Shown here: positions 1,774 through 18,955 of the stretch, in pieces | How the letters are laid out: each line of letters starts with the position of its first letter | Numbering within the stretch: the first letter of the stretch is position 1 | NCBI RefSeq assembly: GCF_009877425.1 | Contig: NZ_WXEY01000002.1 | Span: 52,960-76,959 of the forward strand | Reading direction: 5' to 3' | From: Heliomicrobium undosum | GTDB taxonomy: Bacteria > Bacillota > Desulfitobacteriia > Heliobacteriales > Heliobacteriaceae | Length of the DNA: 24,000 nt | The notes under the pieces: generated by a model | The model's database searches: none | What the model was told of the DNA's origin: nothing | What the model saw: only the letters and a program-made list of their open reading frames with translations | Position numbers and translations under genes: made by a program

Positions 1774-1798
1774 GTTTTTTCGGTAATGGATGATCTAT

Positions 1799-1934: not shown

Positions 1935-1975
1935 AAGAAACGCTAAAGTACATGTACCGGAGGATTTGAAGCGCA

Positions 1976-3085: not shown

Positions 3086-3438
3086 GGCATTTCCGCATCG
3101 ACCTTCGATTGGAAGAAGGCAATCCCCGGGAGGCCCAACTCATCTGGTGGCTTGATCAGTTGAAGGACCCCGCTGCCGTCATCCGGCAGGTTCTGCTCGG
3201 CAACGGCGTTCCCCCTTGGGTCGCTCAGCCGTACCCGGCCATTTTCACGCCCCAGCCTGCGACCCCGTCCACCCTGCTGACCTCGTCGATAAAGGGGAGC
3301 CAGAATGGCGTGTTCGTGGAGAATGAGGAGGAGGACGCCGAGTCGCTACTCGTGGGGCTGTCCGAACTGGATGAGGCGAATGAAGAGGAACTGGATCCTG
3401 AAACAATAAAAAAGGGACTCCAAAACGTATTCAGTTAA
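3082..3438 (+). CDS. Small protein with a ribbon-helix-helix-like N-terminus and acidic C-terminal tail; candidate ParR-like adaptor
   Basis: ATG 3082 overlaps the parM-like stop TGA 3083-3085 (ATGA), with GGAG 7 nt upstream. The N-terminus MRHFRIDLRLEEGNPREAQLIWWLDQLKDPAAVIRQVLLGN has a strand-helix-helix pattern. A Pro-rich linker follows, then the acidic tail ENEEEDAESLLVGLSELDEANEEELDPE. The position downstream of the actin gene matches parM-parR order. Confidence 0.6.
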   Translation: MRHFRIDLRLEEGNPREAQLIWWLDQLKDPAAVIRQVLLGNGVPPWVAQPYPAIFTPQPATPSTLLTSSIKGSQNGVFVENEEEDAESLLVGLSELDEANEEELDPETIKKGLQNVFS

Positions 3439-3450
3439 AAAGGAGATACC

Positions 3451-5418: not shown

Positions 5419-5431
5419 TTAGAGCGAAAAA

Positions 5432-5471
5432 GCCTTCGTTAGCTTGGATAAAGCAACGAGGGCGTTTTTTT
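5432..5471 (+). terminator. Rho-independent terminator of rnj
   Basis: Stem GCCTTCGTT (5432-5440) pairs with AACGAGGGC (5455-5463), including one G-U pair, and is followed by T7 (5465-5471). Confidence 0.75.
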
Positions 5472-5528
5472 GAGGATCACCCTATTAAGTGTATCGCTAA
5501 ATGCTATGGAGACAGACCTTACAATGCC

Positions 5529-5561
5529 TTTTTCGTCATAGAAAAAGCAATTCCTGTCCTG
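5529..5561 (+). repeat. Copy 1 of a 33-nt intergenic repeat (hairpin plus AAAAGCAATTCCTGTC core)
   Basis: TTTTTCGTCATAGAAAAAGCAATTCCTGTCCTG matches 10978-11010 at 27/33 positions, including an identical 16-mer. It contains the hairpin CTTTTTC-gtcata-GAAAAAG. Confidence 0.5.
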
Positions 5562-5569
5562 TTCACCTT

Positions 5570-5983
5570 TCATTTCACCTTCGAGATCGACAAATGAAGA
5601 CGATAGTTGCCGTAACGCAGAATGTCATCCAACAACCGGTCCAGGCTCTCTGTGTTCTCCAGGCAGGCTTTCAGCCAATAACAACCGTCGCCGCTGATAC
5701 GGTGGGATTCGACGATAGCTGCTTCCTGTGTGATGAAGTCCTGAAAGGCCTTATGGTGATTGGTCTTCATGGAAACGGTGATCATCGCCACAATCGGGAG
5801 GCCGATCTTCTCCTGGTTGACTTTGATGGTGAAGCCTTCGATCACGCCGATCTCTTCTAACCGGCGAATGCGGCTTGCCACCGCCTGACCGGTCATGTGG
5901 ACCAACTCGCCGATTTCTTTCCATTGCAAACGGCTGTTCTGTTCTAATAGTCGCAGGATTTCGCGATCCGTTTGATCCAGCAT
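5570..5983 (-). CDS. Lrp/AsnC-family transcriptional regulator
   Basis: MLDQTDREILRLLEQNSRLQWKEIGELVHMTGQAVASRIRRLEEIGVI is the AsnC-type HTH, followed by a C-terminal RAM/AsnC ligand-binding domain. Start is taken at ATG 5983 (GTG 5989 is an alternative). The 6034 start would add an atypical 17-aa extension. Confidence 0.85.
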   Translation of the reverse strand: MLDQTDREILRLLEQNSRLQWKEIGELVHMTGQAVASRIRRLEEIGVIEGFTIKVNQEKIGLPIVAMITVSMKTNHHKAFQDFITQEAAIVESHRISGDGCYWLKACLENTESLDRLLDDILRYGNYRLHLSISKVK

Positions 5984-6107
5984 GTCCACTCGAATCCTTT
6001 CAAGATGAAAAGAATAGGGGCAAAATCCTTCCATCGGACAATCGTCTTGTCATCGGCGCCGATCTAGAATGAGAGGAGAGATCCGAAAAACGATGGAGGG
6101 GTTTTGG

Positions 6108-6884
6108 GTGAAAATACGGCTGATCCGGCACGCCACCGTCTTACTCGATATCGGGGGCCAGAAGATACTGGTCGATCCCATGCTGAGCCCGGCGAGGGCC
6201 ATGGAACCTGTTGTTCATTCTCCGAATCGGCAACGGAATCCTCTTGTGGAGCTTCCCCTTTCAACAGAAGCACTGTTGGATGTCGATGCCGTGCTGCTGA
6301 CCCATACGCACCGGGATCACTTCGATGATGAAGCGGCGAAAAGACTGCCCAAGGACGTTCCGGTATTTTGCCAGCCGTCCGATGAAGGGAAGGTAAACGA
6401 TTTGGGCTTTGCTTCCGTCCATCGCGTTGACGATCGGTTGGATTGGGGCGAGATCACCTTAATCCGAACAGGTGGACAGCACGGAAGGGGGGAAATGGCA
6501 GAGAGGATGGGACCGGTATCGGGTTATGTGATCCAAGCGACGGGGGAACCGTCGCTCTACATCGCCGGTGACACGGTCTGGTGTCCCCCAGTCGAGGCTA
6601 CCCTGGATCAATATCGACCTGCGATCAGCATCCTCTATGGTGGCGCGGCACAGTTTCTCGAAGGCGGACCGATCACCATGGCCTGGGATGATGTTCTTCA
6701 GGTTTGCCGTAAAAACGCCGATATGAAGGTGGTCGTTATCCACCTGGAGGCCTTTAACCACTGTCTAGAAAGGCGAAGTGATCTAAAAAGAAAACGCGAT
6801 GAGCATGGTCTGTCTGAGCGTATATCGGTTCCTCTCGACGGTGAATTATTGATCTTCCCCAAAACGACTCCGGTTTCAGGATAA
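6108..6884 (+). CDS. MBL-fold metallo-hydrolase
   Basis: (V)KIRLIRHATVLLDIGGQKILVDPML and the metal-binding motif LLTHTHRDHFD. GTG 6108 lies 8 nt after GGAGG (6095-6099). ATG 6093 and ATG 6069 are alternative starts. Confidence 0.8.
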   Translation: MKIRLIRHATVLLDIGGQKILVDPMLSPARAMEPVVHSPNRQRNPLVELPLSTEALLDVDAVLLTHTHRDHFDDEAAKRLPKDVPVFCQPSDEGKVNDLGFASVHRVDDRLDWGEITLIRTGGQHGRGEMAERMGPVSGYVIQATGEPSLYIAGDTVWCPPVEATLDQYRPAISILYGGAAQFLEGGPITMAWDDVLQVCRKNADMKVVVIHLEAFNHCLERRSDLKRKRDEHGLSERISVPLDGELLIFPKTTPVSG

Positions 6885-6980
6885 GAAGTCCTGGCTAGGT
6901 TGTAAGGACAAACAGCAATAAAAAGCTACCGTCAAAAAAGAGAAGTGATTGTTGCAAATGCAGCCAATTTACCCTCACGA

Positions 6981-7036
6981 AAATCGCCCTCTGCCTCTTC
7001 AAACGATGAGATGAGGCGGAGGGCGATTTTGTTTTT
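6981..7036. terminator. Bidirectional rho-independent terminator between the MBL hydrolase (+) and thioesterase (-) genes
   Basis: 17-bp stem AAATCGCCCTCTGCCTC (6981-6997) pairs with GAGGCGGAGGGCGATTT (7013-7029) with one wobble. It is followed by TTTTGTTTTT on the + strand and flanked by an A-run, giving a U-run on the - strand. Confidence 0.7.
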
Positions 7037-7098
7037 GACGATTGTAGAATGATTGGCCCAAAAAAGCGTTACACCCGAAAGTAGATATGGGCGTCCAG

Positions 7099-7530
7099 TT
7101 AGGAAGATGCTGAAGAAAAGAATGCTCGGTTCACTTCTTCGAACAGGGTCGGCTTGCCATTCTGGACACAGACGCCGGTTGCCTTCGCCCGCAGCACCAG
7201 TTTTTCATCGGGAAGACGGTACAGGTCCTGAAGGAAGACAAGCCGCAACCGGCCTTCTCGGATAATGTTCATGCGGACGACGAAACGGTCTCGGCTGCGC
7301 AACGGCAGTTTGTAGTCCGCCTCGATCCGGATGAGAACCAGGTCTTTTCCTTTGGCATGGAGACCGGCAAAGTCAATCCCTTTGGCGTATAGAAACTCAT
7401 GCCGGGCATGTTCCAGGTAGTGCAGGTACACAGCGTTGTTGACGACCCCTTGCAGATCACACTCATAGTCACGCACCTGAAAGGCCACTTCGTACTGGTA
7501 GGCAGTGTCGGAAGTGATGTTTTTCATCAT
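7099..7530 (-). CDS. Acyl-CoA thioesterase, 4HBT/YbgC-like hot-dog fold
   Basis: MMKNITSDTAYQYEVAFQVRDYECDLQGVVNNAVYLHYLEHARHEFL fits the YbgC/FadM-type N-terminal catalytic block. GGGAG lies 8 nt upstream of ATG 7530; the upstream part of the tracked ORF (to 7596) has no support. Confidence 0.8.
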   Translation of the reverse strand: MMKNITSDTAYQYEVAFQVRDYECDLQGVVNNAVYLHYLEHARHEFLYAKGIDFAGLHAKGKDLVLIRIEADYKLPLRSRDRFVVRMNIIREGRLRLVFLQDLYRLPDEKLVLRAKATGVCVQNGKPTLFEEVNRAFFSSASS

Positions 7531-7666
7531 GATACCAACTCCCTGTTGCGAATTCTGGATAGATAGTAATGTAAACAATAGCGAAGTGGAAAGCAAGGGA
7601 GTTAATCAGCAGGGGGAGAAAAACGGTGTTATCGGTTGGTTAGGTGACGGAGTAGTTTCGTTTACC

Positions 7667-9205
7667 TTATCCCTGGGCACCCCGGTGTTCCATTTGCCGG
7701 CTCTCTTCGTAGGTAGCGGCAGCTTCGTCCTTCCCTTCCGGCAACTGATCGATCTGCTTCAACAGAAATTGTTGGAGATCGATGCCGGTGGTGGTCTTCA
7801 GCACATCGGGCAGTCGGGTCATCAGTTCGGTCACATAATTGGTCACCTTCGAGGCGCCGGCGTTGTTGCCGTTGCCGGAATCGACGATGGTGATGCGTTC
7901 GATGCGGCTGAGCGGTTCGGCGATATTGCGGGCGATCTCCGGCATCTTCTCGATCAGTTTTTCCATGATCACCAGGGTCATGGCAGGCTGCTCGTACTTC
8001 TTATAGGCTTCCCCGAGCGCTTCGATAGCTGCCGCCTCGGCCATGCCTTTTTCCCGGATGATCTCGACTTCGGCCATCCCTTCCAGGCGCCTGGCTTCCG
8101 CCGCTGCGCGGCCTTTGGCTTCAATGGCCGCCGCTTCCGCCTGGGATTCCTGGATTTTTTGATACCGTGCGGCGTCGGCCTGGCGTTCGACCTGGAACTG
8201 CTCGGCTTCCGCCTGTTTCTTCACGGTCGCTTCCAGTTCTTTTTCTTTCCGCTCAGCTTCTTTTTGAGCCAGTTCCGTCTCTTTTTCCTTGCGGATGATG
8301 TCGATCTGCATCTTCTCGCGCTCGGCCTGCTGTTTGATGCGCAGGCCTTCGATTTCATAGGCCAGATCGGCGTTGGCGCGCGCCGTTTCCTGTTCCTTTT
8401 TGTAGCCCTGGATTTTCAGGTCCGTATTTTTGCGCTCTTCCGCCACATCGGCGTCAGCGCGTAGTTGGGCCGCCTGACCATCTTTGACGGCTTCCGCCGT
8501 TTGCACTTCCGTTTCCTTGCGCGCGCGGGCTTTTTCGATTTCGGCGTCGCGGCGCGCCCGCGCTTCGGCGATTTCGGCTTCTTTCTTCACTTCAGCCACG
8601 CGCTCTTTGCCGAGGGCTTCCAGGTACCCGTTGTCATCAGAGATCTCCTGGATGGTCAGAGTCTCGATCAACAGGCCCATTTCAGCAAAGTTCTCTTTGG
8701 CGCCGAGCAAAATTTCTTGAGAGAAGCGCTCCCGGTCGCGATAGACCTCCTCTACGGTCAGGCGGGAGATGATCTCACGCAACTTGCCGCTTAGGACTTC
8801 GTGGGCGATCGTGCGGATTTTCAAAACCGTTTCATTGGCATTTCCGGCGTTGAAGCGCTCAAGGGCAGCCAGGATCGATTCGTTCGTGTCGCTCTTCACT
8901 TTGATGACGGCGACGCCGCTCACATTGATATCGACGCCCTGGGTGGTGTAGGCCTTGCGAACCCTTACCTCCAGGTTGATCGATTCCAGTGAGATGACGT
9001 CGACCTGATAGAGGATGGGAATGATGATGCCGCCGCCGCCGGCGATGACGCGCAAGCTGTTGTTCGGTCCTTTGATCACCAGGGCTTTTCCGGTCGGCAC
9101 TTTGCGCCACATGGAAAGCACGCCGAAGACGATCAGCAGAAGAATAAAAACAATGCCGCTGACGATGGAGGCGCTGGGAAGAAGCTCACCGATAACGTCA
9201 AACAT
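7667..9205 (-). CDS. floT: Flotillin (SPFH/band-7 domain protein, FloT/YuaG-like)
   Basis: 512 aa. It has an N-terminal membrane hairpin (IVSGIVFILLLIVFGVLSMW), an SPFH domain, and a long Glu/Ala-rich coiled-coil (EAEIAEARARRDAEIEKARARKE...). AAGGAGGG lies 7 nt upstream. The gene sits directly downstream of an NfeD-like gene, as in B. subtilis yuaF-floT. Confidence 0.9.
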   Translation of the reverse strand: MFDVIGELLPSASIVSGIVFILLLIVFGVLSMWRKVPTGKALVIKGPNNSLRVIAGGGGIIIPILYQVDVISLESINLEVRVRKAYTTQGVDINVSGVAVIKVKSDTNESILAALERFNAGNANETVLKIRTIAHEVLSGKLREIISRLTVEEVYRDRERFSQEILLGAKENFAEMGLLIETLTIQEISDDNGYLEALGKERVAEVKKEAEIAEARARRDAEIEKARARKETEVQTAEAVKDGQAAQLRADADVAEERKNTDLKIQGYKKEQETARANADLAYEIEGLRIKQQAEREKMQIDIIRKEKETELAQKEAERKEKELEATVKKQAEAEQFQVERQADAARYQKIQESQAEAAAIEAKGRAAAEARRLEGMAEVEIIREKGMAEAAAIEALGEAYKKYEQPAMTLVIMEKLIEKMPEIARNIAEPLSRIERITIVDSGNGNNAGASKVTNYVTELMTRLPDVLKTTTGIDLQQFLLKQIDQLPEGKDEAAATYEESRQMEHRGAQG

Positions 9206-9219
9206 ATGTTTTTCCCTCC

Positions 9220-9735
9220 TTAGAGTTTGGCGACGAGGTTGATATGTTTTTCGACTTTGATGATCACCACGTCATCGCCGGCGAGGATCTCTTTCCGATC
9301 AAAGGAACGGGCTGGGGCGCGGTGCCGGACGCCCTTGATCAGGTAGGAGACCTCGCCGAGTTCTTCTCCCTTCATCGAGGTCAATGCCGTCCCTTGCACG
9401 CCGGTAATCTTTTCGCTTTCAATGGTTGTCGTGCTTTCCCCTTCTTTGAGGGGACCGATGACAAAACGTTGGATCAAAAATGAGACGATCAGGCCGCAGG
9501 CCAGCGCGGCGATCCAGCGCGCCGGCATGGATAATCCTTTTGTCATCATGCCAACACCGCCAAAAACGGTGACAAAGGCGAAAATCGATTGTGGACCTAG
9601 CGGCAAAAAATGAGCAGCCGAATCGTCGAAAAGGTCAAGGTCTAGATCAAAGGCTGCAAAGAATTCGCCAAAGATAAATGAAAGGATGGTCATGGCAGCG
9701 CCGACGCCGAAACATACCTGAAAAAAGGTTTCCAT
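9220..9735 (-). CDS. NfeD-like membrane protein (YuaF-like flotillin partner)
   Basis: METFFQVCFGVGAAMTILSFIFGEFF... contains several TM segments, followed by a C-terminal soluble OB-like domain (GVQGTALTSMKGEELGEVSYLIKGVRHRAPARS...GDDVVIIKVE). AAGGAGA lies 9 nt upstream of ATG 9735. The tracked ORF start at 9879 falls inside the promoter. Confidence 0.75.
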   Translation of the reverse strand: METFFQVCFGVGAAMTILSFIFGEFFAAFDLDLDLFDDSAAHFLPLGPQSIFAFVTVFGGVGMMTKGLSMPARWIAALACGLIVSFLIQRFVIGPLKEGESTTTIESEKITGVQGTALTSMKGEELGEVSYLIKGVRHRAPARSFDRKEILAGDDVVIIKVEKHINLVAKL

Positions 9736-12538: not shown

Positions 12539-13456
12539 ATGATGACGATTCATCGTTCCAGCATCACAGCGCTGATGAGCGCATATGTGCGGGCTTATCA
12601 CTCGAAGCGCGATGCTAATCCGATCTTTGACGATTTCTTCGCGGAACGGTTGTTTACGGTAGAGGAGCGTTCATCGATTGAAAGCAACCTGGTCGCTGCG
12701 TTGCCCTTTTTTGATCCAGAAAGAGTCACATCATGCCCCGATGCGGATGCCGCATTGTCGTTGGTCATTCGGGCCATGAACGCAACCACCGTAATCAGCC
12801 GCGCGCGTTACACCGAGGATGTATTGGCAAAGATGGTCCATGAGGGTGTGCAGCAGTATGTGATCCTCGGGGCGGGTATGGACACCTTCGCCCTCCGGCG
12901 GTCCGATATGTTAGGGCAAATCGAAGTCTTCGAATTAGACCACCCCGCCACCCAGGCCGATAAACGCAGGCGCCTTGAACGCGCCGGAGTGTCCTGTCCG
13001 GAGCGATTGCATTTTATTCCCATCGATTTCACGACAGAGAGACTGCCGGATGCGCTAAACAGGTCACGGTATTCCCCTGAAAAAAGCACGCTCTTTAGTT
13101 GGCTGGGCGTCACCTATTACCTGACCGGCGAAGAGGTGCTTCGCGCGCTGCGGGATATCGCCACCCTGTCACCGGGAGGCAGTGCGATCATCTTCGACTA
13201 CATGGATGCCGACGCGCTGGATCCCCGGAAAGCATCTATGAGAATGCAGAAGGTGCAGGCGATCGCCGGTCGTTCCGGCGAACCGATGAAGACAGGCTTT
13301 GATCCGCGCAGTTTGGCGGAAGACCTTGCGAAAACCGGCTTGCTTGTTAAGGAAAACCTGTGTCCTGCCGATATAGAAGAGCGCTATTTTAGAGGACGCA
13401 TCGACGGGTGCCACGCATTCGAACATGTGCATTTCGCGTGGGCTGTTGTCGCATAG
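12539..13456 (+). CDS. Class I SAM-dependent methyltransferase (LCMT/TIGR00027-like O-methyltransferase family)
   Basis: N-terminal ITALMSAYVRAYHS...DPIFDDFFAERL, SAM motif I QYVILGAGMDTFALRR, then VFELDHP, IPIDF and LFSWLGVTYYL. AGGAGG lies 6 nt upstream of ATG 12539. Confidence 0.85.
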   Translation: MMTIHRSSITALMSAYVRAYHSKRDANPIFDDFFAERLFTVEERSSIESNLVAALPFFDPERVTSCPDADAALSLVIRAMNATTVISRARYTEDVLAKMVHEGVQQYVILGAGMDTFALRRSDMLGQIEVFELDHPATQADKRRRLERAGVSCPERLHFIPIDFTTERLPDALNRSRYSPEKSTLFSWLGVTYYLTGEEVLRALRDIATLSPGGSAIIFDYMDADALDPRKASMRMQKVQAIAGRSGEPMKTGFDPRSLAEDLAKTGLLVKENLCPADIEERYFRGRIDGCHAFEHVHFAWAVVA

Positions 13457-13511: not shown

Positions 13512-13757
13512 TCATTGATCCCGCACATCCTGCTGGGACAAGCCTTGCCAAAAGGCGATGGCGATGCCTGACCAGACAAAGGTGGCATAGGAAGCATCAA
13601 TCCCGGCGATGATCGAAAAGGCGACACCGGTCAGGCTGACGGCAAGGTAGCCGGCAAACCCTTTTGTCATCTGCTGTGGTTGGGGTATGCGGTTTCGCAA
13701 TCCGTAACCGATGACAAAGGCCGTCGCCACCGTGATGATCAGGATGAGCAAAGGCAT
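13512..13757 (-). CDS. Small hydrophobic membrane protein (81 aa, about 3 TM segments), unknown function
   Basis: AGGAGGTG lies 7 nt upstream of ATG 13757. The product MPLLILIITVATAFVIGYGL...GFAGYLAVSLTGVAFSIIAGI...ATFVWSGIAIAFWQGL is hydrophobic. It is transcribed divergently from the ligase operon. Confidence 0.55.
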   Translation of the reverse strand: MPLLILIITVATAFVIGYGLRNRIPQPQQMTKGFAGYLAVSLTGVAFSIIAGIDASYATFVWSGIAIAFWQGLSQQDVRDQ

Positions 13758-13874
13758 AGCGCGCCACCTCCTATCTACGCCTCCGGCTGAAACGTCCCCT
13801 CCGAGGGGCGTTTTCTTTATGCTCCCCTTGGCGCCTTTGTACAAACCGAAATCTCAATGCCTGAGGCGTTTCAC

Positions 13875-13889
13875 TGAACAGCGTGTTCA
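13875..13889. promoter_or_regulatory. Perfect 6-3-6 palindrome TGAACA-GCG-TGTTCA in the control region of the ligase operon
   Basis: TGAACA (13875-13880), GCG, TGTTCA (13884-13889). The flanking sequence has GT(T)TCAC-like direct repeats (gtttcac, tgttcac, ttcttcac). Confidence 0.35.
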
Positions 13890-13992
13890 CATTCCGGTGT
13901 TTCTTCACACACAAAGGCGGCTCACCAGCCAGGGGGGCTTTACATATAGTGCTATAGACTTGGGGAGGGGGTGTGAACCGATCATTCTCGGC

Positions 13993-15042
13993 ATGCTCGT
14001 TCATCCCCGAACCATTCGGGAAAATTTCCGTGGCAACCGGCTATTTTTCGGGCAGATGGCGCTGTTGGGGAAGACAATGGATATCACCCTGGTCGTTTTC
14101 CCGCCAAAGCATGTCGACTGGCAGCGCTGTCACGTGAAGGGGTATGTCTATGACAGCCGGAGACAGCGCTGGATTCTGCGACGAACGCCCATTCCGGATG
14201 TCGTCTATGACCGCTATATCCCCCATGATTTGCAAACAGCCAGGGTGATCTCCTGCAGGCGGGCCTTCCAGATGCGGGGGATTCCCATCTTCAATCCCCC
14301 CTTCGGCGGCAAATACGGTGTCTACCGGCGACTGCTCAATGATCCGGCCATCGCTCCCCACCTGCCGGAAACGCGATTGCTCATGGGAGAGCGGGGGTGG
14401 TCATCCAGGCTGGCAGCATGGCGGAAGGTGTACCTCAAACCGGACAAGGGATCAAAAGGCAAGGGGATCATCCGCATGTCCCTAGCTGGAGAAGAAGAGG
14501 TCGTCGTCGAGCCAACGGGCGGGCAGAGACAGTACTTGCGACGCAAGGCAGCCTGGCGGTGGCTCAAGAGCCGGACGTTAGGGCAGCGCTACCTGATCCA
14601 GCGGGCCATCGAACCGGCTTGCTGGAAGGGGCGCATCTATGACCTGCGCGTCCTGGTCCAGCGGGAGATGCGCGGGCAATGGGAGGTCACTGGGGGCAGC
14701 GCGCGGGTGACGGGCAATGGGATCACCTGCAACCTGCACACCGGCGCCAGCGCCGCGCCGCTTTCGGAGGCGCTGGCAGAGAGCGGTGTTGAGGTGACGG
14801 CGGAACAGGTTTTTGCGCTGTCCCTGCGCATCGCCCACGCCCTGTCCCGCCACTACCCGGGACTGGCGGAACTAGGGCTCGACTTCCTGGTTGATCGCGA
14901 AGGCAGGGTATGGTTTTTAGAAGCCAATTCACGCCCCGGGCGGAGCATCTTCAGTCGCATCGGCGACTTGCAAGGGCGCCTCACGGCGGTCCGCCGGCCC
15001 TTGGAGTATGCGCGGTATCTGGCAGGGAAAGAGGCCGGGTGA
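13993..15042 (+). CDS. YheC/YheD-family ATP-grasp ligase, paralogue 1
   Basis: Shares blocks with the next two ORFs: VYLKPDKGSKGKGI (ATP-Lys loop), YDLRVLVQ, TCNLHTGASA, and ELGLDFLVDREGRVWFLEANSRPGR (Mg/ATP E-x-N). The start is uncertain. ATG 13993 is the first ATG after the divergent gene. TTG 13960, or ATC/ATT 13981/13984 downstream of GGAGGGGGTG, are alternatives. The 13711 start overlaps the opposite-strand gene and is rejected. Confidence 0.8.
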   Translation: MLVHPRTIRENFRGNRLFFGQMALLGKTMDITLVVFPPKHVDWQRCHVKGYVYDSRRQRWILRRTPIPDVVYDRYIPHDLQTARVISCRRAFQMRGIPIFNPPFGGKYGVYRRLLNDPAIAPHLPETRLLMGERGWSSRLAAWRKVYLKPDKGSKGKGIIRMSLAGEEEVVVEPTGGQRQYLRRKAAWRWLKSRTLGQRYLIQRAIEPACWKGRIYDLRVLVQREMRGQWEVTGGSARVTGNGITCNLHTGASAAPLSEALAESGVEVTAEQVFALSLRIAHALSRHYPGLAELGLDFLVDREGRVWFLEANSRPGRSIFSRIGDLQGRLTAVRRPLEYARYLAGKEAG

Positions 15043-15046
15043 GAGC

Positions 15047-16381
15047 ATGGGCACCATCTACCTGACGGCCCACCAGGCCGGGACAATCGGCGTCGAAGCG
15101 GGGAAAGCAGTCCTCATCCGCGCCGGCGTGCTCTCCTGGCAGGCAAATGTCCGTGTCGTTTCAACCAAACTGCAGTCCCCGCTCGCTCCGGGCGTGCTGT
15201 CCGGCCTGCACTGGCCTGCCGATCTACCCTATCAACTCACCTACTCGAAAGAGGAGCAGGCCTTTGTCGCCGGTCCTCTGCTCGGTATTTTTTCCTACCG
15301 TTATCCAAACAAATCCTACCTCTGGTCGTCTCACTTAAAAGAAACCCAGCGCTACGCCCGTGACTTGGGCGTTATTGCTGTCGTTTTTAGTCCTCAGGAC
15401 ATTGATTGGGGGGAGCGGACGGTGACAGGCGTCATCCTCGTCGGTGATGAGTGGCGCAAGAAGACCTTCCCCATCCCCCGGGTCGTCTATAACCGAATTC
15501 CTTCGCGAAAGGTAGAGAACCTGCCGGAGGTCATCGACTGCAAAAATCATCTGCTCGAAATACCGGGCCTGATTCTCTTCAACCCCCGCTACCTCGACAA
15601 GTGGGAGACCCACCGTCTGCTCCAGCAGCACGTCGCCGTCCGGTCGCTTCTGCCGGAAACGCGCCTGTTGCAGAAAGCGGAGGATATCTGGCCCTTGCTT
15701 AAAGAGCACCGCGTCGTCTACATTAAACCGATCCATGGGACCCAGGGATATGGCATCTACCGGATCGGCCTCCACCCGTCAGGGGGGTACTCCTGGATCG
15801 GCTGCCAATCGGCGGTCACCCTGGGGCTGGCGTACACGCGAAACGCGATTGAAGCCAAGATCAAACGGCTCCTTGAACGAACCGCCTATGTGGCGCAGCA
15901 GGGGTTGCGCCTGGCCTTGATCGAGGGGGCGCCCTTCGACATCCGCCTGCTGGCGCAGAAAGACGGCCGAGGGAAATGGGGGATTACCAAGGCGTTCGGC
16001 CGGATTGCCCCGCCGGGCAAGTTCACCTCCAACCTCAGCCAAGGCGGAAAGGCGATGGGCATCCTCAATTCCTTGAAGGCCGCCTCGCTGCCGCCGAAGC
16101 GAAAACGGTCGACCATCCTCAGAGAATTGCAGCGGTGGGGGGGAGCACTGCCCCGCATCTTGGAGGAGAGCGCTGGATTTACACTGGGGGAATTGGGGCT
16201 AGACATGGCAATTGACCGAAGCGGCAAGGTCTGGTTGCTGGAAATCAACGCCAAACCCTTCAAACGGCTCGACGAAGGGGAGGGGGATCCGCGGCTCGTC
16301 CGTCTTTCCCTGGAGCGGCCAGTCGTCTATGGGCGCTTCCTGGACGGATTTGAGGACGAAGGAAGGGGCCGATCTCCATGA
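15047..16381 (+). CDS. YheC/YheD-family ATP-grasp ligase, paralogue 2, with a unique ~85-aa N-terminal extension
   Basis: ATG 15047 lies 4 nt after the stop of paralogue 1. Blocks: VYIKPIHGTQGYGI, FDIRLLAQK, TSNLSQGGKA, ELGLDMAIDRSGKVWLLEINAKPFK. The N-terminal MGTIYLTAHQAGTIGVEAGKAVLIRAGVLSWQANVRVV... has no counterpart in paralogues 1 and 3. Confidence 0.85.
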   Translation: MGTIYLTAHQAGTIGVEAGKAVLIRAGVLSWQANVRVVSTKLQSPLAPGVLSGLHWPADLPYQLTYSKEEQAFVAGPLLGIFSYRYPNKSYLWSSHLKETQRYARDLGVIAVVFSPQDIDWGERTVTGVILVGDEWRKKTFPIPRVVYNRIPSRKVENLPEVIDCKNHLLEIPGLILFNPRYLDKWETHRLLQQHVAVRSLLPETRLLQKAEDIWPLLKEHRVVYIKPIHGTQGYGIYRIGLHPSGGYSWIGCQSAVTLGLAYTRNAIEAKIKRLLERTAYVAQQGLRLALIEGAPFDIRLLAQKDGRGKWGITKAFGRIAPPGKFTSNLSQGGKAMGILNSLKAASLPPKRKRSTILRELQRWGGALPRILEESAGFTLGELGLDMAIDRSGKVWLLEINAKPFKRLDEGEGDPRLVRLSLERPVVYGRFLDGFEDEGRGRSP

Positions 16382-17484
16382 CGGGGCCTTATGTAGGGAT
16401 TCTGGCCGCCGGCGAAGGGTCGAAAACAGCACCTTTTGGCCGGTGGTCGCCGGCGATCGCTGAAACAGTGAATGCCTTGCGCCTGCGGGGGATCAATGCC
16501 GTCGCCGTGGCTGTCGACGACCTGGGACAGAAACGCTTCGTGAGGGTCTGGCGGCCGGGGGTGGGGCATCGTTGGCATGGGGAACTCAAGGCAGCGCCAA
16601 AAATCCTCTACAACCGCATCCTCAACCGCAGCCGGGAGCACCGGCCTGAGGTGCAGTCACTCTTGCGCACTTTAACACAGCAGGGGGATATCCTTTTCAA
16701 TCCAGGCTACCTGTCAAAGGCTGTCCTCTACCGTCACCTGTCCGGCAGCGCAGTGGCTGACTACCTGCCGGAAACGTCGCTGCAGCCGGCGCCGTCAGAC
16801 GTGCTGGCTATGCTGGCGCGCCGCTCCTGCCTGTATCTGAAACCGGTCGACAGTTGCGGCGGCAGGGGGATCTTTCAGATCCGTCAGAACGGTCCCGCCT
16901 GGCAGGTGACGGAGGTCCGCAAGAAGATCGCCCTTACGTCTTCCTTCCATGAAAGGCAGGAACTGCTGGCCTGGCTCGACCGTCTGCTACACCGGCGTGA
17001 GTACCTGTGCCAGCAGGCCTTGTCGCTTGATCGCATCGATGGCCGGCCCTATGACTTTCGCGTCCTCGTCCAAAAAGATGGTCGGGGCCGCTGGACGTAC
17101 GTTGATGCCGGTATCCGGCTGGCTGCGCCCGGTCACGTGGTTACCCACCGTCCCAACGGAGGGCGGATCCTTCGCCGGGAGCAGTTGCTGCGCCTCCGAT
17201 TCGACCGCTTTCGTTGGAAAGCCATTGAATCAGAAATAGCGGCAGCGGCCATCGCGGCGGCCCGCGCACTCGAGGCAGGCAGCGGAGAGCACTTTGGGAT
17301 TTTGACATTGGATATGGGCTTAGAACGGACTAGTGAACGTTTATGGCTCCTGGAGATCAACGCCAAGCCGGGACGTTTTGACGAACCCTGGATTCAACTG
17401 AAAAGCGACTACCTGCTGGCATCGTACATCAGACATCTGGCGGCCCGGAGGGGGGAGTTTCATGAAAATATATATTCACCATGA
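16378..17484 (+). CDS. YheC/YheD-family ATP-grasp ligase, paralogue 3
   Basis: ATG 16378 overlaps the stop TGA 16379-16381 (ATGA). Blocks: LYLKPVDSCGGRGI, YDFRVLVQKDGRGRW, THRPNGGRI, ILTLDMGLERTSERLWLLEINAKPGR. Confidence 0.85.
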   Translation: MTGPYVGILAAGEGSKTAPFGRWSPAIAETVNALRLRGINAVAVAVDDLGQKRFVRVWRPGVGHRWHGELKAAPKILYNRILNRSREHRPEVQSLLRTLTQQGDILFNPGYLSKAVLYRHLSGSAVADYLPETSLQPAPSDVLAMLARRSCLYLKPVDSCGGRGIFQIRQNGPAWQVTEVRKKIALTSSFHERQELLAWLDRLLHRREYLCQQALSLDRIDGRPYDFRVLVQKDGRGRWTYVDAGIRLAAPGHVVTHRPNGGRILRREQLLRLRFDRFRWKAIESEIAAAAIAAARALEAGSGEHFGILTLDMGLERTSERLWLLEINAKPGRFDEPWIQLKSDYLLASYIRHLAARRGEFHENIYSP

Positions 17485-18955
17485 ACCAAATTCAAGCGTA
17501 TCGGAATTGACGCGTCGGCTGTCTGCTCGCGGCGTCAACGTGACCGCCGGCCGGCAGGGGCCGGAAGAACCGGTCGACTGGTGGATCGAATGGGGGGCAG
17601 GGAGGGAGAGTCAATCGGCAGCCGCCCAGAGGCTGTTCAATGCGCGGGCGGTCGCTTCCCCGGCGACCGATTTTGATACGGTGGAAACGGTGCTGCAAAA
17701 AAATCACCTGCAGGCGCTGCTCGGGGAGGATCCCAGCCGTTGGCCCCTCTCCGTCTGGCCGAAGGAATACCTGATCTATCTATGGGATTGCCGCGTTGTC
17801 GCCGTTCAGCGTAAGGTCTTGATTACACAGCAACTGCGCGATCTGCTGCCTAACAAATCGGTGGCGCCTGCCTTTCACTGGGTCGAACAGTTGACACCCT
17901 GGGAAGAGGAACGGATGGTCAGCGCAGCCATCCGGGCGCTACACTGCCTGGGTATTGATTTTGGCAGAGTCCACCTGGGCGTCAACCGCTCCCGCGGCCC
18001 CATCATCCTCGGTATCGACCCGGCGCCTGTGGTCCGCAAGAGGCTGGCCCAGGCTTACGCTGAGGCGATCGCAACGTCCATCCGGGAGTGGCAGGAAAAA
18101 GCGTCTGTGACCATCGGCTCTGACCCCGAGTTCATGCTCTCCCTCGTTCCCGGTCGGCGCATGGTGCCGGCCTCCCGGTTTTTTCCGCGCACGGGGACGG
18201 TCGGTTGCGATAACCGCAGAGCCTTCGGGGCATCCGACGACCTGCCCCTGGCTGAAGTCCGCCCGGCGCCGGCCGAAAACGCGGTTGAGGCGCTCCAGCA
18301 GTTGCGCAACGTCCTCAATGAGGCGAACCGCCTCTGTCCCTACGCCAACATCGCCTGGGTGACCGGATCAGAACCCTACCCCGGTTATCCGACAGGCGGT
18401 CACATCCATTTTGGCGGACTACAGCCGAACAGCCGTCTCATTCGCGCACTTGATCAATACTTGGCATTGCCGCTGCTTTATCTGGAAAACCCGGAGACGG
18501 CTGCCCGGCGTCGCCAGTTCTACGGCGCCCTCGGCGATTTCCGTGTGAAGCCTCACGGTTTTGAATATCGCACCCCGGGATCATGGCTGGCTTCTCCGGA
18601 GACAGCCTGGATCGCCCTGCACCTGGCCGCTGTTGTGGCCCAGCACTACCGGAGGTTGGAACGGTGGGACTTCCTGCTGCCGGAGGCACAAGAGGCATTT
18701 TACAGTGGGAAGCGAAAAGCGCTCATGCCCCTGTTGCGGCAGACGCTGCTCGATTTGGTCGCCCTTGACGATTCAGAAACGATGCGCCGCCTGGCCCAGC
18801 GGATCTGGACGATGGCCGAAGAAGAGGGCTATGTCCAGGAGGACATCGATATCCGCCGCGCCTGGAAACTGCCCGTTGGGATCCATCGCTACCGGTATGT
18901 CCCTCGTCCCCGCTACAGCATCTCCTGGCTAGGCGGCAGCGCCAACCGGATCTAA
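17462..18955 (+). CDS. Fusion protein: N-terminal ATP-grasp-like (probably degenerate) domain plus C-terminal COOH-NH2 ligase (GS/GCS2-like amidoligase) domain
   Basis: ATG 17462 overlaps the end of paralogue 3 by 23 nt. The N-terminal ~210 aa end in AIRALHCLGIDFGRVHLGVNRSRGPIILGIDPAP, which is ATP-grasp C-subdomain-like but lacks E-x-N. The C-terminal ~280 aa carry IGSDPEFML, LAEVRPAP, YPTGGHIHFG and HGFEYRTPGSW, the motif set of carboxylate-amine ligases of the phiEco32-like COOH-NH2 ligase type as I recall it. Confidence 0.75.
   Translation: MKIYIHHEPNSSVSELTRRLSARGVNVTAGRQGPEEPVDWWIEWGAGRESQSAAAQRLFNARAVASPATDFDTVETVLQKNHLQALLGEDPSRWPLSVWPKEYLIYLWDCRVVAVQRKVLITQQLRDLLPNKSVAPAFHWVEQLTPWEEERMVSAAIRALHCLGIDFGRVHLGVNRSRGPIILGIDPAPVVRKRLAQAYAEAIATSIREWQEKASVTIGSDPEFMLSLVPGRRMVPASRFFPRTGTVGCDNRRAFGASDDLPLAEVRPAPAENAVEALQQLRNVLNEANRLCPYANIAWVTGSEPYPGYPTGGHIHFGGLQPNSRLIRALDQYLALPLLYLENPETAARRRQFYGALGDFRVKPHGFEYRTPGSWLASPETAWIALHLAAVVAQHYRRLERWDFLLPEAQEAFYSGKRKALMPLLRQTLLDLVALDDSETMRRLAQRIWTMAEEEGYVQEDIDIRRAWKLPVGIHRYRYVPRPRYSISWLGGSANRI

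What the first reader, a model, noticed from the sequence alone, without database searches (positions are those of the whole stretch)
17462..18955. Unusual fusion: apparently inactivated ATP-grasp-like domain joined to a GS-like COOH-NH2 ligase domain
The first ~210 aa end in a typical ATP-grasp C-subdomain string (AIRALHCLGIDFGRVHLGV..RGPIILGIDPAP). However, the E-x-N metal/ATP motif kept by the three upstream paralogues (LLEINAKP, FLEANSRP) is replaced by LGIDPAP, and the Lys-loop block is not evident. The C-terminal ~280 aa carry IGSDPEFML, EVRPAP, GGHIHFG and FEYRTPGSW, consistent with a glutamine-synthetase/GCS2-like amidoligase. A dead ATP-grasp module fused to a live ligase could act as a substrate or partner docking domain. 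It might hand over an intermediate made by the three active ATP-grasps.
Basis: partly seen in the sequence, partly recalled or inferred. Interest (0 to 1): 0.65.

Follow-up and report, generated by a model that had tools for sequence, protein, structure and literature searches.

The report
Dead ATP-grasp fused to live amidoligase
This heliobacterial gene joins a gutted, non-catalytic copy of an ATP-grasp enzyme to an intact glutamine-synthetase-like ligase; the pairing is real but is standard for a family widespread in spore-forming Firmicutes, and what it makes is still unknown.

Summary
ORF 17462-18955 (+) encodes 497 aa. Residues 218-470 are a full-length PF14395 "phiEco32-like COOH-NH2 ligase type 2" domain (E 2e-103). 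Its model matches the GS/YbdK fold, and 11 charged residues are invariant in 78/78 relatives. Residues 1-214 hit no Pfam or NCBIfam model, yet they fold confidently as an ATP-grasp: all top 50 PDB matches are ATP-grasp enzymes.

New here: the N-domain is sequence-homologous (whole-library E about 1e-15 to 1e-20) to small phage RimK-like ATP-grasps. Those phage proteins keep every catalytic motif. In phiEco32 and other phages they sit in the same cassette as a separate PF14395 ligase. Aligned to them, the window protein has lost the nucleotide-clamping (RAGNYA/lid) domain, both basic residues, the ExR Arg, the Asp and ExN (now G-I-D).

The fusion is not unusual. All 80 complete related loci have both halves in one ORF. 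In about 66 of about 77 ligase-bearing loci a YheC/D ATP-grasp gene lies directly upstream. About 22 loci carry cotE upstream, and mutS/mutL often lie downstream.

Best reading: a live ligase carries a pseudo-ATP-grasp as a docking scaffold in a sporulation-linked multi-ligase system. Function is inferred. Interest is moderate.

The parts
17462..18955 (+). Complete gene for the 497-aa fusion protein (stop included). The start ATG is preceded by the RBS-like string GGAGGGGGGAG at 17447-17457. The gene overlaps the end of the upstream YheC/D gene by 23 nt.
   Evidence: the 100%-identical protein P0001 and an 86%-identical Heliobacterium gestii orthologue are
17462..17713 (+). Residues 1-84: pre-ATP-grasp-like subdomain. 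Predicted elements are strand 2-7, helix 14-22, strand 26-30 and strand 40-44 (the last carrying the IxWG motif). It also holds the 'lN..a....(d/s)K' linker block. N60 is kept in 74/78 relatives. The linker Lys is F71 here and is Lys in only 9/78.
17714..17761 (+). Residues 85-100: a short, lower-confidence linker that occupies the place of the missing RAGNYA/central (lid) domain of ATP-grasp enzymes.
   Evidence: Alignment A5 shows a gap of about 50 columns against the phage ATP-grasps. There are 47 profile positions against 116 RimK residues between the two colinear HMMER blocks. pLDDT is 61-63 here.
17762..18103 (+). Residues 101-214: remnant of the protein-kinase-like C-subdomain of the ATP-grasp, followed by a long connecting helix (193-213). 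Catalytic positions are changed as follows: E102-Y103-L104 stands in place of E-Y-R. H171 (nt 17972-17974) stands in place of the strand-4 Asp. G184-I185-D186 (nt 18011-18019) stands in place of E-x-N. The LG(L/I)DFG motif and P189 are kept.
18113..18871 (+). Residues 218-470: PF14395 COOH-NH2 ligase type 2 domain (GS/GCS2-like fold). Invariant in 78/78 relatives: D221, E223, D250, E265, R267, H314, H316, R350, R351, E368, R370.
18872..18952 (+). Residues 471-497: C-terminal tail. It is disordered in the model (pLDDT <50 from residue 485). It ends in an R-x-S-x-S..W/G motif that relatives share, sometimes after long Ser/Asn/Arg-rich inserts.
13993..15042 (+). YheC/D-type ATP-grasp paralogue 1, with intact K-loop, DLR, LGLD and ExN (FLEANSRP). 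The mechanical ORF starts at 13711, but orthologues (331-362 aa) and a terminator-like hairpin at 13789-13814 point to a start near 13960-13993.
15008..16381 (+). YheC/D-type ATP-grasp paralogue 2 (LLEINAKP). It overlaps paralogue 1 by 35 nt.
16378..17484 (+). YheC/D-type ATP-grasp paralogue 3 (LLEINAKP). It overlaps paralogue 2 through ATGA and overlaps the fusion gene by 23 nt, which suggests translational coupling in a four-gene operon.

Best explanation
The gene encodes a two-module protein.

Module 2 (residues 218-470) is a catalytically competent ATP-dependent carboxylate-amine ligase of the glutamine-synthetase/GCS2 fold, in the phiEco32-type 'COOH-NH2 ligase type 2' family (PF14395). 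By analogy with that fold, it should activate a carboxylate as an acyl-phosphate and pass it to an amine.

Module 1 (residues 1-214) is a pseudo-enzyme. It is a homologue of the small RimK-like ATP-grasp ligases that phages encode next to their own type-2 ligase. It has lost the nucleotide-clamping RAGNYA/lid domain and all conserved ATP/Mg ligands. It keeps the pre-ATP-grasp subdomain and the C-terminal subdomain, which are the parts that in RimK, LysX/ArgX, PsnB and MdnC hold the peptide or protein substrate and make the oligomer contacts. The two modules are predicted to pack rigidly together.

The most likely role of module 1 is therefore a non-catalytic scaffold. It would dock the peptide or protein substrate, and/or the neighbouring active YheC/D ATP-grasp ligases, onto the live ligase domain.

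The four-gene operon (three YheC/D paralogues plus this gene) would carry out successive ATP-dependent amide-bond ligations. The genomic link to cotE and the known spore-coat location of B. subtilis YheD suggest this happens in the mother cell during sporulation, on a coat or spore-envelope component.

Shown: the domain identities, the loss of the ATP-grasp catalytic apparatus, the conservation of the ligase residues, the fixed fusion, and the gene linkage. Inferred: the docking role, the substrate, and the timing in sporulation.
For: Architecture:
- PF14395 covers residues 218-470, E 2e-103, across the full model.
- The full-length AF2 model has pLDDT 89.7 and pTM 0.91.
- Foldseek against PDB returns GS (8ool, E 5e-7) and YbdK/GCS2 (1r8g, 1tt4; TMt 0.45-0.50), and also RimK, MdnB and ArgX.
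- The N-domain-only model gives 50 of 50 top hits to ATP-grasps.
- The best viral structural matches are a phage COOH.NH2 ligase type 2 (E 3.8e-9) and a phage ATP-grasp (E 5.5e-8).

Homology of module 1:
- The N-domain profile finds 3117 proteins at E<=1e-3. These include stand-alone 230-325 aa proteins (E about 1e-15 to 1e-20) that are PHROG 2599 RimK-like and exceed the Pfam RimK cut-off.
- The profile also scores the ATP-grasp of Alcaligenes phage QDWS535 at 41.7 bits.
- phiEco32 has gp86 (PF14395) and gp80 (ATP-grasp) as separate genes in one cassette. QDWS535 is arranged the same way.

Decay of module 1:
- End-to-end alignment A5 shows the RAGNYA segment deleted, K to F71, EYR to EYL, GAVD to GRVH, and EVN to GID.
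- Across the family these columns are unconserved: position 71 is K in 9/78; position 171 is K16/H12/T10/D9/E8; position 184 is G25/S13/D13; position 186 is D36/N15/E12. The ligase residues are 78/78.
- The defining residues of ATP-grasp enzymes are taken from PMC4431377.

Linkage:
- A YheC/D gene lies directly upstream on the same strand in about 66 of about 77 ligase-bearing loci.
- cotE is upstream in about 22 loci, and mutS, mutL and miaB are frequently downstream.
- The two halves are never split in 80 complete loci.
- Metagenomic protein P0205 is a triple fusion of N-domain, PF14395 and YheC/D.
- B. subtilis YheD is a SpoIVA-dependent basement-layer coat protein (PMC7725329).
Against: - No experiment or structure exists for any PF14395 protein; a profile search of PDB sequences finds none. 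The chemistry and substrate are therefore extrapolated from the fold.
- The docking role rests on analogy with substrate-binding surfaces of other ATP-grasps. I could not inspect coordinates or run a multimer prediction.
- In five Paenibacillaceae/Tepidibacillus loci, and in one second copy in a Syntrophomonadaceae genome, no YheC/D gene lies within 8 kb. The ligase may therefore not strictly need YheC/D partners.
- Module 1 shows no detectable sequence affinity to YheC/D beyond a weak profile-profile signal.
- The window itself contains no cotE, and no sporulation promoter was established.
- Some family members keep one or two of the acidic ligands (D or E at 171 in 17/78, E at 184 in 4/78). 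Residual metal binding in some lineages is not excluded.
Confidence: 0.6

Rival explanations
1. The N-domain is a heteromerisation module, not a substrate dock. As a lid-less ATP-grasp it would pair with the active YheC/D paralogues through the usual ATP-grasp dimer or tetramer interfaces. This would tether the GS-like ligase into a multi-ligase complex so that intermediates are channelled.
For: - Adjacency to a YheC/D gene on the same strand is near-universal, with overlapping stop and start codons.
- The triple fusion P0205 places YheC/D in the same polypeptide.
- The structural neighbours RimK, Ddl and PsnB are obligate oligomers (established knowledge; hits).
Against: - The N-domain belongs to a different ATP-grasp lineage from YheC/D. 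Sequence searches show no signal, and profile-profile probability is only about 41-46%. Conserved homotypic interfaces are therefore not expected.
- The Paenibacillaceae loci keep the N-domain although no YheC/D gene is nearby.
- No interaction prediction could be run.
Confidence: 0.25
2. The operon makes a small soluble peptide-like metabolite, such as a non-ribosomal oligopeptide, cofactor or storage compound. It is not a spore-coat modification. The cotE neighbourhood would then be mere synteny.
For: - Linked ATP-grasp and COOH-NH2 ligases are commonly read as successive steps in peptide-derived metabolite synthesis (PMC4431377).
- The phage cassettes combine these ligases with GAT-II, a peptidase and gamma-glutamyl cyclotransferase, which points to small-molecule or glutamyl chemistry.
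- In Heliobacteria and Syntrophomonadaceae the cluster is not next to cotE.
Against: - The family is confined, as far as sampled, to endospore-forming Firmicute lineages.
- It sits directly downstream of cotE in about 22 loci from several families.
- YheD, a homologue of the partner enzymes, is physically in the coat.
- The closest structural relatives of the N-domain are peptide- or protein-modifying ATP-grasps: PsnB, MdnC, ArgX and RimK.
Confidence: 0.2
3. The N-domain is still an active but highly atypical ATP-grasp enzyme. It would bind ATP with substitute residues, or borrow a lid from a partner in trans.
For: - Position 186 stays polar or acidic (D/N/E in 63/78) and D166 is nearly invariant (72/78).
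- A basic residue (R/K101) is kept in 64/78.
- A few relatives (L059, P0205) retain a RAGNYA-sized insert.
Against: - The RAGNYA domain, with its Lys/Arg and glycine-rich loop, is physically absent in the window protein and most relatives.
- The linker Lys, the ExR Arg, the strand-4 Asp and the ExN Glu are all unconserved.
- The conserved residues that remain (N60, Y103, G164-L165-D166, P189) are also conserved in the active phage enzymes outside the ligand set. They look structural.
Confidence: 0.05
4. The fusion is an artefact: a frameshift, a mis-assembly or a gene-calling merger of two adjacent genes.
For: None was found beyond the general possibility. A few short N-domain-only proteins (117-249 aa, for example P0129) exist among metagenomic representatives.
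Against: - The ORF is uninterrupted in the window.
- An identical protein and an 86% orthologue are on record.
- Both halves lie in one ORF in 80 of 80 complete loci across many families.
- AF2 predicts a single rigid two-domain body with pTM 0.91.
- The short N-only proteins are best explained as fragments from short contigs.
Confidence: 0.01

Closest known systems
phiEco32 gp86 and other phage 'COOH.NH2 ligase type 2' proteins (Pfam PF14395; PHROG 3815)
   Same: The C-terminal domain belongs to the same Pfam family (E 2e-103). The best viral structural match is the Salinivibrio phage CW02 type-2 ligase (E 3.8e-9, TMt 0.61). It has the same GS/GCS2-like fold and shares the G-x-D-P-E, GGH-x-H and F-E-Y-R motifs.
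   Different: - The phage proteins are stand-alone, about 255-270 aa. They are only about 28% identical and match the Pfam model partially.
- Their cassette partners are Amidoligase_2, GAT-II, a peptidase and gamma-glutamyl cyclotransferase, not YheC/D.
- The window protein carries an extra 215-aa N-terminal module.
Phage RimK-like mini ATP-grasp ligases (PHROG 2599, annotated 'ribosomal protein S6 glutaminyl transferase'; e.g. phiEco32 gp80, Alcaligenes phage QDWS535 gp39)
   Same: They are homologous to the N-domain over its whole length (whole-library E about 1e-15 to 1e-20). Shared motifs are I(R/N)WG, lN..a, (E)Y(R)V.V, LGLDFG.V and the closing Pro. In phages they are encoded in the same cassette as a PF14395 ligase.
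   Different: The phage proteins keep the linker Lys, a RAGNYA domain with its basic residue and G-rich loop, ExR, IRxxxxG, GAVD and EVNxxPG. The window N-domain has lost all of these and is covalently fused to the ligase.
E. coli YbdK / GCS2 carboxylate-amine ligases and glutamine synthetase
   Same: The C-domain has the same fold (1r8g, 1tt4 and GS structures, E 5e-7 to 3e-6, prob 1.00). A phage PF14395 member also passes the Pfam GCS2 cut-off. By analogy the chemistry is ATP-dependent acyl-phosphate ligation.
   Different: The window family has no sequence-level match to any solved structure. The substrate is unknown. TM-scores are only 0.45-0.5 on the target.
B. subtilis YheC / YheD (Pfam PF14398), spore-coat-associated ATP-grasp proteins
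   Same: The three upstream genes belong to this family and have intact catalytic motifs. The family is linked to the spore coat (PMC7725329), and the cluster often follows cotE.
   Different: - The fusion protein's own N-domain is not a YheC/D member. It has no PF14398 hit, and profile-profile similarity is only weak.
- From my own knowledge, not tested here, B. subtilis has yheC-yheD without a PF14395 partner.
RimK, LysX/ArgX, PsnB and MdnC (peptide- or protein-modifying ATP-grasp ligases with solved structures)
   Same: These are the best structural neighbours of the N-domain (TMq 0.55-0.66). RimK is also the best sequence-profile match, through two colinear blocks (E 0.08-0.25).
   Different: All of them are active enzymes with a lid domain and complete ligand set. 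The N-domain lacks about 70 residues between the two blocks.

Membership tests
PF14395 COOH-NH2 ligase type 2 (phiEco32-like) | Significant full-length match to the family profile | tested here: met
   E 2.1e-103, 345 bits against a cut-off of 25. Residues 218-470 cover model positions 1-254 of 254. PHROG 3815 'COOH.NH2 ligase' E 1.6e-12.
PF14395 COOH-NH2 ligase type 2 (phiEco32-like) | Conservation of the family's charged or metal-binding residues, which implies an active enzyme | tested here: met
   D221, E223, D250, E265, R267, H314, H316, R350, R351, E368 and R370 are invariant in 78/78 relatives. Mapping them to the GS ligands (E-x-E, H-x-H, E-x-R) is inference from motif resemblance.
Glutamine synthetase / GCS2 carboxylate-amine ligase superfamily | GS-like catalytic fold | tested here: met
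   Foldseek against PDB: GS 8ool E 5e-7; YbdK 1r8g E 1.9e-6, TMt 0.45; 1tt4 TMt 0.50; prob 1.00. A phage PF14395 member hits Pfam GCS2 at 25.5 bits, above the cut-off of 21.
Glutamine synthetase / GCS2 carboxylate-amine ligase superfamily | ATP-dependent ligation of a carboxylate to an amine | not testable with these tools
   Needs an enzyme assay. No member of PF14395 has a solved structure by sequence search.
ATP-grasp superfamily (as a fold / homologous group) - N-domain | Pre-ATP-grasp domain plus protein-kinase-like C-domain topology, with detectable homology to bona fide members | tested here: met
   - 50 of 50 top PDB hits are ATP-grasps.
- RimK is the top sequence-profile hit, with two colinear blocks.
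- Stand-alone PHROG 2599 / Pfam RimK proteins are hit at whole-library E about 1e-15 to 1e-20.
ATP-grasp enzymes (catalytically active) - N-domain | RAGNYA (central/lid) domain with a basic residue at the end of strand 2 and the ssxGbGl loop (PMC4431377) | tested here: not met
   This segment is absent. A 16-residue linker (85-100) replaces about 50 aligned columns. There are 47 profile positions against 116 RimK residues between the conserved blocks.
ATP-grasp enzymes (catalytically active) - N-domain | Lys in the linker between the pre-ATP-grasp and RAGNYA domains (PMC4431377) | tested here: not met
   The window has F71 at this position. The column is Lys in only 9/78 relatives, whereas all nine aligned stand-alone phage homologues have Lys.
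ATP-grasp enzymes (catalytically active) - N-domain | [quoted passage not shown] | tested here: not met
   The window has E102-Y103-L104 where the phage homologues have E-(Y/F)-R. In alignment A5, Arg survives in only some relatives (L006, L023, L025, L043, P0205).
ATP-grasp enzymes (catalytically active) - N-domain | Acidic residue in strand 4 of the kinase-like domain (PMC4431377) | tested here: not met
   The window has H171. The column reads K16 H12 T10 D9 E8 R6... among 78 relatives. RimK D248 and the phage GAVD motif align here.
ATP-grasp enzymes (catalytically active) - N-domain | ExN motif at the end of strand 5 (PMC4431377) | tested here: not met
   The window has G184-I185-D186. Column 184 reads G25 S13 D13 A6 E4, and column 186 reads D36 N15 E12. 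The phage homologues are invariant EVN.
PF14398 YheC/D ATP-grasp - the three upstream genes | Profile match plus intact K-loop, DxR, Asp and ExN | tested here: met
   E 3e-68, 4e-71 and 1.5e-63. The motifs YLKPDKGSKGKGI / YDLRVLV / LGLDF / FLEAN and their equivalents are visible.
PF14398 YheC/D ATP-grasp - N-domain of the fusion | Profile match to the family | tested here: not met
   - No PF14398 hit for the window N-domain or for 62 relatives.
- An HMM built from 150 YheC/D sequences scores no better than shuffled controls.
- hhalign gives only score 35 and probability 41-46%, although this is above 40 column-shuffled controls, which reach at most 19.

The most novel reading that the evidence does not exclude
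Endospore-forming Firmicutes carry an ancient, phage-related multi-ligase system at or near the cotE-mutS locus. Its GS-like ligase captured its former ATP-grasp partner by gene fusion and stripped it of its ATP-binding lid. It now uses that module as a substrate- or partner-docking pseudo-enzyme. Together with 1-4 YheC/D ATP-grasps, it builds a ribosome-independent peptide tag or cross-link on a spore-coat or envelope component. This would give the long-orphaned YheC/YheD coat proteins a biochemical role.
Probability: 0.3. Interest if true: 0.6.

Novelty: new variant of a known kind. Interest (0 to 1): 0.4.

Why it matters
- It gives a domain assignment to about 215 residues that Pfam and NCBIfam leave blank in a protein family present in many hundreds of Firmicute species.
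- It documents a clear pseudo-enzyme: an ATP-grasp with its lid deleted and its ligands randomised, but its fold under selection.
- It ties a Firmicute operon to the phiEco32-type phage ligase cassette, where the same two components are separate genes.
- Linkage to YheC/D ATP-grasps is near-universal and linkage to cotE is frequent. Together they make a concrete, testable proposal for the unknown biochemistry of the YheC/YheD spore-coat proteins.
- It does not reveal a new kind of system, and no function is demonstrated.

Tried and rejected
1. Pfam and NCBIfam scans of the N-domain alone, and of 62 relatives at E<=10, gave only scattered noise. Three ATP-grasp families were each hit once at E 0.03-0.06.
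2. BLASTP of the N-domain against the three paralogues, and a YheC/D HMM against the N-domains, gave no signal above reversed or shuffled controls. The idea that the N-domain is a decayed tandem copy of its neighbours was dropped.
3. The upstream LCM-family carboxyl methyltransferase (12539-13456) was considered as a fifth member of the system. It is not conserved upstream in the other heliobacterial loci, and a terminator-like hairpin intervenes. It was rejected.
4. Weak hits of the C-terminal helical region to TetR_C domains and to PDB entry 3qfi (E 0.03-0.16) were treated as chance.
5. The key reference, Iyer et al. 2009 (Mol Biosyst 5:1636; PMC3268129), is not held in the library. I could not check whether the N-terminal domain or the cotE linkage is already described there. 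My recollection that this paper predicted spore-coat or capsule peptide modification for YheC/D is unverified.
It was redone with subsequences of allowed proteins.
7. A sigma-E/sigma-K promoter upstream of the operon was looked at by eye only, and nothing convincing was seen. The sigma-70 scan is uninformative.
8. Literature searches for 'inactive' or 'degenerate ATP-grasp', and for RimK ligand residue numbers, returned nothing useful.

Full report
**1. What is there**

The window carries an uninterrupted ORF at 17462-18955 (+) of 497 aa. It is the last gene of a tight four-gene, same-strand cluster. The other three ORFs are 13711/13993-15042, 15008-16381 and 16378-17484. They overlap one another and the fourth gene by 35, 4 and 23 nt. 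A strong RBS-like GGAGGGGGGAG lies 4 nt before the ATG at 17462.

All three upstream proteins are PF14398 YheC/D ATP-grasps (E 3e-68, 4e-71, 1.5e-63). They have an intact K-loop, DxR, Asp and ExN.

The nearest named orthologues are from Heliobacterium gestii (86%), Heliobacillus mobilis (63%), Heliorestis and Heliophilum. The window therefore comes from a heliobacterium.

**2. The C-terminal half**

Residues 218-470 match Pfam PF14395 ("Phage phiEco32-like COOH.NH2 ligase-type 2") over the full model (E 2e-103). They also match PHROG 3815 "COOH.NH2 ligase".

No member of this family has a solved structure detectable by sequence. A 78-sequence alignment gave a confident AlphaFold model (pLDDT 89.7, pTM 0.91). 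Foldseek places that model with two groups of structures. One group is glutamine synthetases (8ool, E 5e-7) and the GCS2-type ligase YbdK (1r8g, 1tt4; TMt 0.45-0.50). The other is the Salinivibrio phage CW02 type-2 ligase (E 3.8e-9, TMt 0.61).

Eleven charged residues are invariant in 78 of 78 relatives: D221, E223, D250, E265, R267, H314, H316, R350, R351, E368, R370. Three motifs resemble the GS metal and phosphate ligand motifs: G-x-D-P-E-F, G-G-H-I-H-F and F-E-Y-R-T-P. That resemblance is my inference from established knowledge of GS. This half looks like a working ATP-dependent carboxylate-amine ligase.

**3. The N-terminal half is an ATP-grasp**

Residues 1-217 hit nothing in Pfam or NCBIfam. 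The same is true for 62 relatives scanned individually.

Even so, the full model also matches RimK, MdnB and ArgX. A separate model of residues 1-214 (pLDDT 86.2) gives 50 of 50 top PDB hits to ATP-grasp enzymes: PsnB, MdnC, ArgX, Ddl and RimK (E 5e-8 to 1.5e-6; TM 0.5-0.66 on the query).

An HMM of the N-domain ranks four RimK sequences first among PDB chains (E 0.08-0.25). The match comes in two colinear blocks:
- profile 53-80 aligns with RimK 86-113, the "lN..ai....dK" linker;
- profile 128-167 aligns with RimK 230-268, "..GVDIL....PLVMEVNASPG".

Between the two blocks the profile has 47 positions and RimK has 116 residues.

**4. A sequence-level relative that settles the active-site question**

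Searching the N-domain profile against 1.84 billion representative proteins gave 3117 hits at E<=1e-3. The fusion proteins themselves are among them. So is a large set of stand-alone proteins of 230-325 aa (E about 1e-15 to 1e-20). These stand-alone proteins:
- keep an E-x-N-x-x-P motif (31 of them among the top 150 hits);
- belong to PHROG 2599, annotated "ribosomal protein S6 glutaminyl transferase" (E 1e-32 to 1e-66);
- exceed the Pfam RimK cut-off.

tblastn with one of them finds 315 phage genomes, including phiEco32 itself.

In phiEco32 the cassette reads gp86 (PF14395), gp84 (Amidoligase_2), gp83 (GAT-II), gp80 (this ATP-grasp) and gp77 (gamma-glutamyl cyclotransferase). Alcaligenes phage QDWS535 has the same set, and its ATP-grasp scores 41.7 bits against the N-domain HMM.

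**5. Scoring the losses**

PMC4431377 lists the defining catalytic features of ATP-grasp modules:
- a Lys in the linker between the pre-ATP-grasp and RAGNYA domains;
- a Lys at the end of RAGNYA strand 2, together with the ssxGbGl loop;
- an Asp in strand 4;
- ExN at the end of strand 5.

Alignment A5 aligns the window N-domain end to end with nine stand-alone phage-type proteins that keep all of these. Their motifs are sK, v.aR..hsG.Gi, EYRVHV, IRxhxxGw, LGLDFGAVD and vlEVNtaPG. In the window protein:

| Feature | Window protein |
|---|---|
| Linker Lys | F71 |
| RAGNYA segment (about 50 columns) | a 16-residue, low-confidence linker (85-100) |
| ExR (EYR) | E102-Y103-L104 |
| IRxxxxG motif | absent |
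| Strand-4 Asp (GAVD) | G-R-V-H171 |
| ExN (EVN) | G184-I185-D186 |

Family-wide, these columns are unconserved:
- position 71 is Lys in 9/78;
- position 171 is K16/H12/T10/D9/E8;
- position 184 is G25/S13/D13/A6/E4;
- position 186 is D36/N15/E12.

The residues that are conserved are N60, Y103, A156, G164, L165, D166 and P189. The active phage enzymes also conserve them, outside the ligand set, so they look structural.

Two relatives still carry a RAGNYA-sized insert but already lack ExN. They are the locus L059 protein and the metagenomic protein P0205. This suggests stepwise decay.

The N-domain is therefore a pseudo-enzyme.

**6. The N-domain is not a copy of its neighbours**

BLASTP finds no similarity between the N-domain and the three YheC/D paralogues. 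A YheC/D HMM scores the N-domains no better than shuffled sequences. Profile-profile comparison gives only score 35 (probability 41-46%). That is real, since 40 column-shuffled controls reach at most 19, but it is weak. The N-domain therefore comes from the phage/RimK-like lineage, not from YheC/D.

**7. How general the fusion is, and where it sits**

The 80 best span Heliobacteriaceae, Syntrophomonadaceae, Alicyclobacillaceae, Paenibacillaceae, Tumebacillus, Kyrpidia, Symbiobacterium, Thermincola and others.

In all 80 complete genes both halves lie in one ORF. The one exception is cut by a contig end.

Clustering all neighbouring ORFs shows only two families conserved across lineages: the ligase, and YheC/D (72 loci, 163 genes). 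A YheC/D gene lies directly upstream on the same strand in about 66 of about 77 ligase-bearing loci, and up to four more flank it.

In about 22 loci from several families a CotE-like gene lies upstream. mutS, mutL and miaB frequently follow. The order rny-...-cotE-Y-Y-LIG-Y-Y-miaB-mutS-mutL recurs. In Paenibacillus and Tepidibacillus the ligase alone sits between cotE and mutS.

P0205 fuses the N-domain, PF14395 and YheC/D in one chain.

B. subtilis YheD is a SpoIVA-dependent basement-layer coat protein, and YheC and YheD share an operon (PMC7725329).

The window itself has no cotE. Its flanks hold an LCM methyltransferase, an MCP-like gene, gap, corA and a subtilase. These are either not conserved with the cluster or are simple heliobacterial synteny.

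**8. Mechanism**

The following are shown:
- a conserved, apparently active GS-fold ligase;
- a covalently attached ATP-grasp homologue that cannot clamp ATP;
- predicted rigid packing of the two modules (pTM 0.91);
- obligate fusion;
- near-obligate adjacency to active YheC/D ligases;
- frequent adjacency to cotE.

The following are inferred. What remains of the ATP-grasp is the pre-ATP-grasp subdomain plus the kinase-like C-subdomain. In the closest structural relatives (RimK, ArgX, PsnB, MdnC) these are the parts that bind the peptide or protein substrate and form the oligomer interfaces. The module most likely serves as a docking scaffold for the substrate and/or the YheC/D enzymes. The operon as a whole would perform several successive amide ligations on a sporulation-specific target.

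I rate the architecture and pseudo-enzyme conclusion at about 0.9. I rate the docking and spore-coat function at about 0.4-0.5.

Rivals are:
- a pure heteromerisation module;
- synthesis of a soluble metabolite;
- a still-active atypical ATP-grasp;
- an annotation artefact (effectively excluded).

**9. Comparison with what is known, and novelty**

The C-domain is an ordinary though divergent member of PF14395. The upstream genes are ordinary PF14398 members.

I recall that Iyer et al. 2009 discussed linkage of ATP-grasp and COOH-NH2 ligases in general, and a spore or capsule role for YheC/D. That paper could not be read here. PMC4431377 cites it for such operonic linkages.

Three things appear not to be captured by current annotation (Pfam, NCBIfam and source names):
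- the identity of the N-terminal 215 residues as a lid-less, ligand-less ATP-grasp;
- its origin from the phage cassette partner;
- the regular cotE-...-mutS placement.

I therefore file this as a new variant of a known kind, not a new kind of system. It is also not "unusual" within its own family. Interest is 0.4: a tidy pseudo-enzyme case with a testable link to spore-coat biochemistry, but no demonstrated function and possible prior description.

Noticed in passing
Loci L006, L012, L023, L025, L042, L043, L047, L049, L050, L052, L054, L056, L059-L061, L066, L068, L070, L072, L074, L075, L080 (around locus position 5000-8000): A CotE-like gene lies upstream of the YheC/D-ligase cluster. In many of these loci it is directly adjacent, and mutS, mutL and miaB often follow. 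The order rny-...-cotE-Y-Y-LIG-Y-Y-miaB-mutS-mutL recurs in Alicyclobacillaceae and related bacilli. In B. subtilis cotE is directly followed by mutS-mutL (my own knowledge).
   Followed up: partly
L068, L070, L074, L075, L080 (ligase at about 7500-9500): In Paenibacillus and Tepidibacillus the fusion ligase sits alone between cotE and mutS, with no YheC/D gene within 8 kb. L053, a second copy in a Syntrophomonadaceae genome, also lacks YheC/D neighbours. I did not check whether YheC/D genes exist elsewhere in these genomes.
   Followed up: no
Protein P0205 (783 aa, metagenomic, truncated at its C-terminus): This is a triple fusion. It contains an N-domain that still has a RAGNYA-sized insert and EYR but reads ILDID instead of ExN, then PF14395, then a YheC/D ATP-grasp. 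It is both a Rosetta-stone link between the ligase and YheC/D and an apparent evolutionary intermediate.
   Followed up: partly
L059:7608-8366 (Thermincola ferriacetica MAG) and L012:7677-8366: The N-domains of these relatives keep an insert of about 40-60 residues where the RAGNYA domain would be (for example PYPLVGKWNNQTSGGVTEAVI...). Loss of the lid is therefore not uniform across the family.
   Followed up: no
window 13711-13993: The mechanical ORF for YheC/D paralogue 1 starts at 13711. That stretch overlaps a minus-strand ORF (13512-13844) and a terminator-like hairpin (13789-13814). Orthologues are 331-362 aa and begin at '..ILG(I/M)(L/M)VHP'. The real start is probably between 13960 (TTG) and 13993 (ATG), after the GGGGAGGGGG at 13962-13971.
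   Followed up: partly
window 12539-13456 (+): A Leucine carboxyl methyltransferase (PF04072, E 8e-48) gene lies directly upstream of the operon on the same strand. It would be a tempting partner for a carboxylate-modifying system, but it is not conserved upstream in Heliobacterium mobile, Heliorestis or Heliophilum.
   Followed up: yes
Alignment A1 columns about 550-670; window residues 471-497 (nt 18872-18952): Syntrophomonadaceae relatives carry long Ser/Asn/Arg/Thr-rich, low-complexity C-terminal tails. These tails end in a short conserved motif (R-x-S-x-SGP...). The heliobacterial proteins have the motif in compact form (RYSISWLGGSANRI). Its function is unknown, and it is disordered in the model.
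   Followed up: no
Protein P0193 (519 aa): A representative protein has two tandem copies of the phage-type ATP-grasp module with ExN intact. It also scores against the YheC/D HMM, which hints at intermediates between the two ATP-grasp lineages.
   Followed up: no
L008-L079 Syntrophomonadaceae loci (positions about 1200-6800): In Syntrophomonadaceae two YheC/D genes are separated by a conserved block of housekeeping genes of about 5 kb: a phosphofructokinase-like gene, a 3-hydroxyacyl-CoA dehydrogenase-like gene, a membrane protein and a YchF-like GTPase. All lie on the same strand. The cluster is therefore split there.
   Followed up: no
L083 (phiEco32 47258-59920) and L081 (Alcaligenes phage QDWS535): The phage cassette combines PF14395, Amidoligase_2 (PF12224), GAT-II, the mini ATP-grasp and, in phiEco32, a gamma-glutamyl cyclotransferase. 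In QDWS535 it also includes a peptidase. phiEco32 gp80 is 397 aa, so it has about 150 residues beyond the ATP-grasp core, and these have no Pfam hit.
   Followed up: partly
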